NCBI GenBank assembly: GCA_964016885.1
Contig: OZ024741.1
Span: 95,852,001 to 95,916,000 of the forward strand
Direction of reading: 5' to 3'
Source of the DNA: Eledone cirrhosa
Lineage: Eukaryota
DNA length: 64,000 nt
Numbering within the stretch: position 1 is the first letter of the stretch; every line of letters begins with the position of its first letter. Positions 22,975-60,897 of this stretch are shown in pieces. The notes beneath the pieces were generated by a model. The model saw only the letters and a program-made list of their open reading frames with translations, made no database searches and was not told where the DNA came from. Both the position numbers and the translations under genes were made by a program.

Positions 22975-23146
22975 ATTATGGCTATTGGAGAGCTTTGTTA
23001 CTCTAAAGTTTCACCTGCGGACTCCCGTGATCACCAGCCTTGTTTGATGATACTGTGAGTATGTAGGTGAAACTCCAGAGTAACAAGGCTTAGCCATAAT
23101 AAATGAATATTTAAACTCTACTTCGGTATTGAGTTTTCATTCTTAC
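22975..23146 (+). ncRNA. Foldback element with a degenerate type I hammerhead (23036-23090)
   Basis: AGCCTTGT-TTGATGA-[stem II]-GAAA-CTCCAGAG-TA^ACAAGGCT with an 8-bp stem I and C3->U. An inverted partial copy overlaps on the minus strand. Confidence 0.6.
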
Positions 23147-23165
23147 GTCCGTCAATAATTCGCGC

Positions 23166-23459
23166 ACTCTCTTGAATAATCGTCCCCCCGCTATAAATTT
23201 GTCAGATTTTTATCCATCTCGCCCGGTTTTATTACATCCACCCACCAGCTTATTATATTTTGCTAATCTCCAGCGAAATTTTATTGTAAGTGATTCATAT
23301 TGATACAGCAGCTAGAGAATCTAATAATAATTATAAATGACAAAAGAACATTACGAGAAATCCCATATTTTCGAACGTACACTATACTATTACTGATTTC
23401 CCAAGACCCCACCCCGCTCCATTACTGCCACCCCTCCTATTATTTGGGACCCGAGAGTA
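23166..23459. mobile_element. Probable degenerate MITE
   Basis: Ends ACTCTC...AATAAT..CCCCC and CCCTCCTATTATTTGGGACCCGAGAGTA form imperfect inverted termini. Confidence 0.4.
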
Positions 23460-25310
23460 CCACCAAACTCTCCTCCTCTCTATGTCTATCCCACAGAACT
23501 CTCTTTTAATCCCCCTCTCTGTATCTACTAAAACCAAAATCTCCCCCTCTCTATATCTACCACGACACCGCCTCTCTTATCCCACTCTCTATATCTAAGA
23601 TTAATGCACACTTTCACTCTCTAAAAATATCTACACTTATCTCTCCCAATCCCCCTCTGTATATCAATCATCCCGAAACTCTCAACCTCTCTATATCTAC
23701 TACACGGCACTCTCTCATTATCCCTCGTTGTGTATATACAAACACCAAATTCTACCCCTCTCTATATCAATTTGCACAAAACTCTCCCCTCTCTATATCT
23801 GATATACAGAACACTCTTCCAATCCCCCTCTCTATATCAATTAACACAAAACTCCCCCTCTCTATAACTACTATACGCAACTCCCTTCGAATCTCCCTCT
23901 CAATATCAATAAACATCAATCTCTTCCCCTCTCTATATCAATTACCACTTGATATAGACGTGAATTACTTCGCTCCGGACTTTTACGGATTATTGTCAAA
24001 AAAATTGTGAGTTCATTGCTCAATTTAATAGCATTGTTTAGTTTAACCCTTTGCCTGGGCCGTCAGACGTTGAGTCAACTAATTTTCGCCCCTTTCTGGG
24101 GCGAAATTTTCATTTTCATCTTAAAACTGTGTAGACTTGGTAGTCAGCAATGGATGCCATTTCCACCTCGCACACTGTCGTGAGTGCCACGCCCACTGAG
24201 AAAAGTGGTGGAAGGAAGGTAGGAGTACAAAGCTTGCAGCCTTCCCCCCTAGCATTATCGAAAAACGTTGAAAATATTGAAACCACGAAACCAAACCCGG
24301 TAAATAATACCAGCACCAACAACAAGAACAATGACAATAACACCACAACCAGCAACTGCAACAATAGCAACACCAAGGAAAACATGAACAATATTACCAA
24401 CAGTGACAACAACAGCAGCAACAAAAAAGACAACACCAAAACAACATTCGCAAAGACTGTAAAAAAAAAACGAACTATACACGCTAATAGACATAACAAA
24501 TGCTAAACAACTATTACAAGACGCAAAACAATTCGTGACTTTTGGCGAAAACGGTGCTTTTAGCATCAATTCTCCACAGGAATTACGTAGAGAGGCGGTT
24601 TTCCTCTGTGTGATAGCTATGGCGAAAGAAGTTGTATGGTGGACAAGGTTGAAAGGGCTGAGGTCAGATACTTTTCTCTCCGGCCAACAACTGGTCTTTT
24701 TTTTCAAGTACCACTTTAGAAAAAGGATCAGAATGGAGAGAGAGGTGCTCTACCCCAGCAAGTTTTATGAAAGGCGGGTGAAAGTAGCGAGAATGGCCCG
24801 AGTGAATGGGCCTTCTCTCTATATCAGCCTGTAGGTGAGAGAGGAGAAGAATGAGATGAGGAAGGAAGCACCCGCTCTTTGTACTCCTGAAGAGGAGGGT
24901 TGCACATTTTTTCGGGGGTGTGTGCGACCCATGTCAACGCCCCTCCCTATTGAGGACATCGATTGTTAAATTTAATTTGTTATATGTTTTTTACACGTCT
25001 TTTTAAACGTATGTAAACTCCCCCTTTGTATTTGTCCCAATCTTTGATGCCCTGGTGGCAAATAAATAGAAATTTATATCTAATATACAACATTCTCTCC
25101 CAATCCCCCTCTCTATATCAATTAACACCAAACTAATCCCCTCTGTATATCTACTACACGGTACTATCTTCCAATCCCCCTCTCAATATCAATAAACATC
25201 ATTCTCTCCCCTTCTCCATATTTAATAGACAACACACTCCCAACCTTCCTCTCTATATCAATTACCACCAAACTTTCCCCCTCTCTATATCTATATCTAT
25301 CTCTCCCGTC
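23460..25310. repeat. Degenerate CCCCCTCTCTATATC-based minisatellite, interrupted at about 23960-25075
   Basis: The recurring core is seen on both sides of the insertion. Confidence 0.75.
23960..25075 (+). mobile_element. Internally deleted Tx1/L1-like LINE
   Basis: Low-complexity ORF1-like start (24150-24506) joined to an ORF2 C-terminal-like segment (AKEVVWWTR...FFFKYHFRKRIRMERE). The 3' UTR with AATAAA is shared with 40738-40797. Confidence 0.5.
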
Positions 25311-59463: not shown

Positions 59464-60304
59464 TCTAATATATATTTGTGAAATGGGTGGTGGTTGAAAT
59501 TCAGATGTGCACGGTTAAAAGGTAGTAGACGTGGTCGGACGGACTTGAAAATATACACACCTATGTAAAAAGTACCAAGGAAGCAAATAGACGAGGTTCC
59601 AAATTTCTAACTTGAAAAATGTGGTCCCTAGGGCCCCCAAACGGTCTATTTACTATCGCGTTCGGTGAGTTATTTCCCCCTGTTCTAATACTTGGATGAG
59701 TTATTTACAATTTCATACACATTTTTAAACTCATCAACGTTCTTTCGCTGTTAACATACAGTACCAATAATTTGAAAATTATTATTGAAAGTTTATTATA
59801 AAGAAGCAGTTTCAGGAAAAAAAATAGAAATATGCACTTGGGGCTGGACGGCGTACAATGAGAAGTGGAGCGACGTGAAAAGCGTTGTTTATTAACAGCG
59901 AAATAGCAATGTCGATGATATGCAAGTTTGAAAATGCAGATTAATAAACTGTTGCCTTCTACAGTACGTTTCATTTTCACAGTACCGTTTTATGAAATCG
60001 ATTCTGCAGTACGGTCACTGTTTTTCATCAAAAGAAATAAAACCCTTAAATTGCGAAGAAGGGACGCGTGTTTTTATCAGTAAGTAGTATTTTTCAAATT
60101 GCATATCATCGACATTGCTATTTCGCTGTTAATAAACAACGCTTTTCACGTCGCTCCACTTCTCATTGTACGCCGTACAGCCCCAAGTGCATATTTCTAT
60201 TTTTTTTCCTGAAACTGCTTCTTTATAATAAACTTTCAATAATATTTTTCAAATTATTAACTTAATAAAAAGTGGCCCCGGGTGCAACCGGGCTCAGCTG
60301 CTAG
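59464..60304 (+). mobile_element. Non-autonomous Helitron with an internal inverted repeat
   Basis: A|TCTAATATAT 5' end. 3' hairpin CCCGG-GTGCAA-CCGGG then CTAG|T at 60301-60304. Confidence 0.7.
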
Positions 60305-60708
60305 TATATATATATTTGTGGTAAGGTTGCTTGGATGCGTCCGTAGGCGGTATGCCGGTTGAGCAGAGTATGATAATATGGAAAACGAAGAATCAGTGAT
60401 GCACCGGAACACACATTTATTACGTATTACAAATGTTTTTCCGGCGAACAGCTCGAGGTGCGATCTGTTTGTGAATCGAACCTGACTCTGGATTCGCAAG
60501 TTCCTCAGATACGTCTAGTGATTTCGAAGTAAATTGTCTTTCTGCTTTCAACTTTCTGCTTTCGACTTTCTATCGTCTGCCTTCATCCGATGTATCACTG
60601 ATTCTTCGTTTTCCATATCACACACACACACACACACACACACACACACACACACACACACACACACACACACACACACACACACACACACATATATATA
60701 TATATATA

Positions 60709-60897
60709 AAATTAGAAATATAAGCTTCCACCGTATTTTTGACTAAAGAAATTTTAGCCTGATAGTGGGGTTTACAACCCTCAGAGAAATGGAAAAAGAT
60801 CAGTATTGACGTACATTTCGCTAAGGGTTCGAAACCCCACTATCAGGCTAACATTTCTTTAGTCAAAAATACGGTGAAAGCTTATATTTCTAATTTT
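60709..60897. repeat. Foldback element next to (TA)n
   Basis: AATTAGAAATATAAGCTT...CTGATAGTGGGGTTT is mirrored by AAACCCCACTATCAG...AAGCTTATATTTCTAATT. Confidence 0.75.

What the first reader, a model, noticed from the sequence alone, without database searches (positions are those of the whole stretch)
22975..60897. At least seven further, mutually dissimilar (TA)n-associated elements each carry a minimal type I hammerhead
Seen in sequence: HHR folds at 23036-23090, 36876-36933, 37183-37218 (minus, degenerate), 43647-43693, 44038-44103, 47712-47749 and 55078-55125. All have a short, mostly self-complementary stem III (CTCCAGAG, TGATCA, TCGG, CAGTTG, TATGTA, CCGG, CATTAGTG). Their flanks share no obvious similarity. 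Inference: a very dense and diverse population of Penelope-pLTR/retrozyme families that prefer TA microsatellites, roughly one per 6-8 kb here.
Basis: partly seen in the sequence, partly recalled or inferred. Interest (0 to 1): 0.72.

Follow-up and report, generated by a model that had tools for sequence, protein, structure and literature searches.

The report
Penelope retroelement stubs carrying hammerheads
Six of the seven motifs are real hammerhead-type RNA motifs at the tail ends of different Penelope-like jumping-gene families that insert into TA repeats, a known arrangement found about every 16 kb in this genome, the seventh is likely a decayed passenger, and whether any of them cuts RNA is untested.

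Summary
The seven motifs are at the stated coordinates and exceed chance (8 window hits against 0.18 in shuffles; 38 against 1.4 in 600 kb of evenly spaced genome stretches). Six (sites 2-7) mark the 3' ends of Penelope-like elements (PLEs): fixed 3' end at (TA)n, variable 5' truncation, inverted 5' arm lacking a fixed tail. Sites 4 and 5 trace to Hydra-clade RT/GIY-YIG ORFs, site 6 to a Neptune/Nematis-type ORF, site 3 to a Hydra-type endonuclease in one locus only; sites 2 and 7 are non-coding 2,077-bp and ~440-bp units. Site 1 is likely a decayed relic inside a terminal-inverted-repeat element (core intact in 2 of 25 copies). The window is not a clear hotspot (P=0.054); about one motif per 16 kb, roughly 180,000, genome-wide. 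PLE hammerheads, U3-A8 cores, palindromic stem III, opposite-strand pairs and (TA)n targeting are published, including an octopus Hydra element. One testable detail: the site-4 lineage keeps a U4C core in 12 of 12 ORF-intact young copies. No cleavage or RNA evidence. This scan noted the same system earlier elsewhere in this genome.

The parts
22967..23335 (+). Site 1 (family F1): fold-back 22967-23108 with hammerhead-like motif 23036-23090; likely an old PLE stub carried inside a larger element
   Evidence: Same junction in the 25 aligned copies, arms ~72% complementary; GAAA in 4 of 25, GAGA in 16 of 25, whole core in 2 of 25; short TATAT remnant at the presumed 3' end. Right boundary approximate.
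22426..25452 (+). Composite element with ~15-bp terminal inverted repeats that contains site 1, a 69-71-bp minisatellite and an internally deleted LINE (23950-25070)
   Evidence: Left-flank sequence matches upstream of most F1 copies and right-end sequence after the minisatellite; LINE ORFs with Exo_endo_phos, RVT_1, zf-RVT in L199. Boundaries approximate; later insertions (22853-22966) lie inside.
36477..36800 (-). Site 2 (F2) main copy: 3' end at 36477 against (TA)n; hammerhead 36667-36724
   Evidence: Fixed 3' end followed by AT/TA repeats in 25 of 25 loci; 2,077-bp head-to-tail unit without ORF over 126 aa in L195
36830..36982 (+). Site 2 inverted 5' arm with the cited hammerhead 36876-36933; lacks the last ~139 nt (tail)
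37047..37260 (-). Site 3 (F3): ~210-nt 3' stub, hammerhead 37183-37218 with U3-A8 core; family stem III CCGG
   Evidence: Core UUGAAAA in 23 of 24, CCGG in 22 of 24; Hydra-type endonuclease upstream in one locus, L172
43016..43595 (-). Site 4 (F4) main copy: last 580 nt of an autonomous Hydra-clade PLE; hammerhead 43222-43268 with U4C core
   Evidence: 97-98% copies extend into an 822-aa RT + GIY-YIG ORF (L186); 12 of 12 sister copies with 832-aa ORF carry the same core
43606..43731 (+). Site 4 inverted 5' arm with the cited hammerhead 43647-43693; lacks the last 163 nt
   Evidence: 131-nt arms, 97% complementary
43905..43980 (-). Site 5 inverted 5' arm, broken inside the hammerhead; lacks the last ~84 nt
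44002..44237 (+). Site 5 (F5) main copy: 3' stub of an autonomous Hydra-clade PLE; hammerhead 44038-44103, canonical core
   Evidence: Hydra-type endonuclease on the same strand upstream in 9 of 20 longer copies; core intact in 24 of 25
47383..47670 (-). Site 6 (F6) main copy: 3' stub of a Neptune/Nematis-type PLE; hammerhead ~47590-47633 with U3-A8 core
   Evidence: Four longer copies share 1.5 kb upstream with broken RT, CX4CxxC linker and CCHH-type GIY-YIG; core intact in 16 of 21
47677..47931 (+). Site 6 inverted 5' arm with the cited hammerhead 47712-47749; lacks the last ~38 nt
54830..55253 (+). Site 7 (F7): about one ~440-bp non-coding monomer, hammerhead 55078-55125 (window copy U3, family C3)
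   Evidence: Partial tandems with 438-441-nt spacing; CUGAUGA in 20 of 25, core intact in 22 of 25

Best explanation
Six of the seven motifs lie 135-210 nt inside the fixed 3' ends of six separate Penelope-like retrotransposon families that abut (TA)n tracts, and they are so frequent likely because copying starts just behind the motif and usually stops early, so nearly every short stub carries one; the seventh is likely a decayed stub carried by another element. Shown: family membership, fixed 3' ends at (TA)n, variable 5' ends, inverted arms lacking a family-specific tail of 38-163 nt, partial tandems, linked RT/endonuclease ORFs for sites 4, 5 and 6. Inferred from published PLE work: the element's GIY-YIG endonuclease nicks (TA)n; its reverse transcriptase starts at two internal RNA sites, which gives the long arm and the tail-less inverted arm; the non-coding units (sites 2, 7) borrow these enzymes. 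Inferred and untested: in the active parent the hammerhead trims multimeric transcripts into unit-length RNA, weakly, as a dimer through its short stem III or with help from the element's protein; the truncated window copies are probably inert.
For: Descriptor hits far above shuffles in the window and in an independent 600-kb sample. Each site has a genome-wide family (901-3,602 first-look candidates, 40 scored each). 3' ends abut TA/AT repeats and 5' ends vary. F4 ORF has RWR, DKT, YRDD, CxCX5C, no CCHH, and CxxC/CxH around the conserved E and N, the Hydra criteria of PMC8557442 section 11; 144 scored RT matches among 42,320 candidates, many with 832-aa frames. Twelve such copies are 98.6-100% identical over 1,500 nt, carry pLTR-like partial tandems and end at two sites about 160 nt apart, as expected from two reverse-transcription start sites (PMC11167929). 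F5 and F6 ORF links. 16 of 38 sampled motifs have an inverted partner within 2.5 kb.
Against: No cleavage or RNA data. None of ten minimum-energy folds shows the three-way junction. 5' ends do not pile up at the predicted cut: 2 of 56 unselected copies within 4 nt, about 3 expected if uniform. Pfam finds no RT or GIY-YIG domain in the F4 ORF, a profile of 87 homologues reaches solved RTs only at E=0.47; the clade calls rest on motifs and by-eye comparison with the paper's supplementary alignment, not on a tree. F3's parent rests on one locus; no autonomous partner was identified for F2 or F7. Family samples are the best-scoring 21-30 copies, so integrity figures are biased upward.
Confidence: 0.88

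Rival explanations
1. The elements are PLE ends, but the hammerheads no longer cut; the fold is kept as a protein-binding or structural signal and core changes are tolerated.
For: Family-fixed core changes: U4C in 28 of 30 F4 copies and 12 of 12 ORF-intact sister copies; CUGAGAA-type core in 10 of 10 matched copies of another abundant family. In the anole PLE, hammerhead mutants did not impair insertion in vitro and no RNA-seq reads ended at the cut site (PMC11167929). No pile-up of 5' ends at the cut.
Against: 33 of 38 sampled motifs keep C3/U4/G8 and 3 more keep U3-A8, across 16 sequence clusters with different stems (partly built into the descriptor). U4C lowers activity in vitro but suffices in a viroid (PMC3088659 passage). 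The anole hammerhead does cleave with protein.
Confidence: 0.25
2. All seven are independent retrozymes, small non-coding repeats that spread through circular RNAs.
For: F7 (~440 bp) and F2 (2,077 bp) are non-coding head-to-tail units with one hammerhead each.
Against: F4, F5, F6 (and F3 in one locus) continue into RT/endonuclease ORFs; F2 is far longer than the 150-450 bp of described animal retrozymes (PMC7229834); no circular RNA evidence.
Confidence: 0.07
3. The palindromic elements are fold-back or MITE-type DNA transposons that happen to hold hammerhead-like sequence.
For: Long inverted arms at sites 2, 4, 5, 6; site 1 does lie inside an element with short terminal inverted repeats.
Against: At sites 2-6 arm length and junction vary from copy to copy, many copies have no inverted arm, and one arm always lacks a fixed tail.
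Confidence: 0.03
4. The motifs are chance matches in AT-rich repeats.
For: Weak folding energies; sites 2 and 6 miss the union descriptor; about 1.4 of 38 sampled hits are expected false positives.
Against: 8 against 0.18 and 38 against 1.4; family majorities keep the core at six sites.
Confidence: 0.02

Closest known systems
Hydra clade of C-terminal EN+ PLEs, including Hydra-1_Obim of Octopus bimaculoides (Craig et al. 2021, PMC8557442; passages, section 11 and supplement passages seen)
   Same: RWK/RWR, DKT, CxCX5C linker, no CCHH, CxxC and CxH at the endonuclease end, hammerhead near the 3' end, (TA)n insertion, tandem and inverted copies (F4, F5; F3 tentatively).
   Different: F4 unit is ~4.2 kb with ~1.7 kb of 3' UTR against 'generally <3 kb'; tails are 61-163 nt against the 30-40 nt described for PLEs; F4 core is U4C.
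Minimal and small-helix-III hammerheads in pLTRs of metazoan PLEs (Cervera and de la Pena 2014, PMC4209133; parts 1-2 of 4 read)
   Same: Many dissimilar families per genome, mostly single motifs from truncated PLEs, pairs on opposite strands 100-700 bp apart, U3-A8 variant, small palindromic helix III, low expected activity.
   Different: Estimated number here (~180,000 in 3.0 Gb) exceeds the counts in the passages read (X. tropicalis ~9,000; coral >6,000; mussel ~5,000; axolotl 126,247), though descriptors differ.
Neptune/Nematis clades of PLEs (PMC8557442 passages)
   Same: [quoted passage not shown]
   Different: Only broken copies seen; Neptune against Nematis not resolved by a tree.
Metazoan non-LTR retrozymes (Cervera and de la Pena 2020, PMC7229834, passages; Li et al. 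bioRxiv 10.64898/2026.07.22.740005, part 1 of 5)
   Same: F7: non-coding ~440-bp unit, one type I hammerhead, head-to-tail repeats, PLE link.
   Different: F7 occurs mostly as monomers or partial tandems in (TA)n; RNA circles not tested; F2 unit is 2,077 bp.

Membership tests
Type I hammerhead ribozyme | Core boxes CUGANGA (or U3-A8), GAAA, UH in type I order | tested here: met
   Family majority at sites 2, 3, 5, 6, 7; U4C variant at site 4
Type I hammerhead ribozyme | Core boxes conserved in the site 1 family | tested here: not met
   Whole core in 2 of 25, GAGA in 16 of 25, 8-nt core deletion in many
Type I hammerhead ribozyme | Stems I-III can pair around the core | tested here: inconclusive
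   Pairing possible by descriptor for 5 of 7 (6 of 7 at the loosest setting); stem I only 2 bp at site 6; no minimum-energy fold shows the junction
Type I hammerhead ribozyme | Self-cleavage after UH | not testable with these tools
   Needs an assay; genomic 5' ends show no pile-up at the site
Penelope-like element (EN+) | Single ORF with RT and C-terminal GIY-YIG | tested here: met
   F4, F5 endonuclease end, F6 broken RT and endonuclease; by motifs, not by Pfam
Penelope-like element (EN+) | Same ORF for F2, F3, F7 | tested here: inconclusive
   F3 one locus; none in the F2 unit or F7 monomer, read as non-autonomous
Penelope-like element (EN+) | 5' truncation, partial tandems (pLTR), inverted 5' copy, optional tail | tested here: met
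   F2-F7
Hydra clade | RWK and DKT motifs, CxCX5C linker, CCHH absent, terminal CxxC and CxH | tested here: met
   F4 ORF in L186 (RWR for RWK); linker and endonuclease end for F5; criteria
Hydra clade | Insertion into (TA)n | tested here: met
Hydra clade | Placement in the Hydra clade on an RT tree | not tested
   Reference sequences seen only in the supplement text and compared by eye
Neptune/Nematis clades | CX2-5CxxC linker plus CCHH-type endonuclease (F6) | tested here: met
   L371, L372, L373, L375 translations
Naiad | N-terminal endonuclease, no canonical hammerhead | tested here: not met
   Endonuclease is C-terminal in F4, F5, F6
Non-LTR retrozyme | Non-coding 150-450-bp head-to-tail unit with type I hammerhead | tested here: met
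   F7 only, 438-441 nt, mostly partial tandems; F2 unit too long
Non-LTR retrozyme | Linear and circular unit-length RNA | not testable with these tools
   Needs RNA data from this organism

The most novel reading that the evidence does not exclude
This genome holds the largest natural library of hammerheads yet counted, and its most recently active Hydra-clade element runs on a core-variant (U4C) hammerhead that cuts only when bound by its own reverse transcriptase, making the ribozyme a protein-gated switch for releasing the transposon RNA.
Probability: 0.2. Interest if true: 0.6.

Novelty: new member of a known kind. Interest (0 to 1): 0.3.

Why it matters
The role of PLE hammerheads is still open in the papers read (PMC4209133, PMC8557442, PMC11167929). 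This genome supplies many families, natural core variants and near-identical ORF-intact copies of a Hydra-clade element, so protein-assisted or dimeric cleavage and the two-start-site model could be tested outside the one anole element. As a discovery it is modest: every structural feature but the scale and the fixed U4C core is already described. It also warns annotators that these stubs mimic MITEs and microRNA hairpins.

Tried and rejected
Rfam scan: swamped by microsatellite/microRNA matches; none of the seven among the 150 rows shown. The repeat finder was swamped by microsatellites, replaced by masked self-blast. Pfam on the F4 ORF: nothing relevant; 1 of 4 homologues hit RVT_1; Pfam scan of the whole alignment exceeded the size limit and was not repeated; PDB profile search only E=0.47. 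Search for the F3 parent with L177 upstream DNA retrieved an unrelated palindromic repeat. Fossil cut marks at the predicted cleavage site: not found, 2 of 56 unselected and 1 of 110 family-selected copies within 4 nt. Idea that sites 3 and 6 are one family: rejected on flank alignment and different parents. Idea that site 1 is a 5' ribozyme of the neighbouring LINE: rejected, since the minisatellite resumes after the LINE and many F1 copies lack it. RNA editing as the source of the site 1 arm differences: changes point to both strands by eye, not pursued. Local hotspot: not supported. Literature searches; 'hammerhead ribozyme' + 'octopus' gave 5 papers (4 listed), and by title and abstract start none is a genome-wide count; supplements of the bioRxiv preprint were not seen and those of PMC7229834 and PMC4209133 were not opened, and they may list cephalopod counts or the U4C variant.
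Full report
Setting. The window is G000:C2:95852001-95916000 in a 3.0-Gb animal genome, 37% GC and rich in microsatellites. The only named homologues among the 120 listed for the site-4 protein are from Argonauta hians, so an octopod-type genome is my inference; I did not identify it further.

Noticed in passing
window 21091-21912: 465-bp partial tandem with two identical canonical type I hammerheads (21119, 21584; CTAG stem III), the only hammerhead rows among the Rfam matches shown; retrozyme-like, outside the finding.
   Followed up: no
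window 22001-22130, 22853-22934, 43789-43858, 44280-44500, 56199-56330, 58800-59200: A further, more abundant (TA)n family with fixed 3' end, ~80-nt tail and fold-backs (8 insertions in 600 kb); endonuclease 1.3-1.6 kb upstream in 3 loci; longer copies show a hammerhead-like fold with long stem III and CUGAGAA core in 10 of 10 pattern matches. Window copies are cut inside the motif, so descriptors miss them.
   Followed up: partly
window 23950-25070; L082, L085, L088-L090, L096-L098, L100, L104, L199, L200: A LINE with zinc-knuckle-like ORF1 and APE-RT ORF2 sits at the same point of the minisatellite in 11 of 25 F1 loci, with two further copies at other minisatellite positions: possibly a LINE that targets a repeat inside a DNA transposon, like Xenopus Tx1L/Tx1D (recalled, no call). 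The window copy is internally deleted.
   Followed up: partly
window 37047-37260 (F3): 5' ends cluster 69-73 nt upstream of the predicted cut in 8 of 10 unselected copies: a defined ~210-nt short form or a strong stop for reverse transcription.
   Followed up: no
sites 3 and 6: The same U3-A8 core and CCGG stem III occur in families with unrelated flanks and apparently different parent clades: convergence or exchange of the motif.
   Followed up: partly
window 55815-55955, 59766-60258, 60709-60896, 15032-15395: Further fold-back elements without a descriptor hit; possibly more PLE stubs.
   Followed up: no
window 49188-53296 (minus): Broken Helitron-like Rep and Pif1-like helicase frames, recognised by eye.
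   Followed up: no
window 4982-6091, 8481-9335, 31523-34333 (minus): Fragments of non-LTR retrotransposons with RT and restriction-like endonuclease ends beside (TGTA)n tracts, recognised by eye.
   Followed up: no
window 27578-28036 and 28609-29000: 167-bp tandem of a SINE-like repeat found elsewhere in the window, and a 94-bp tandem array.
   Followed up: no
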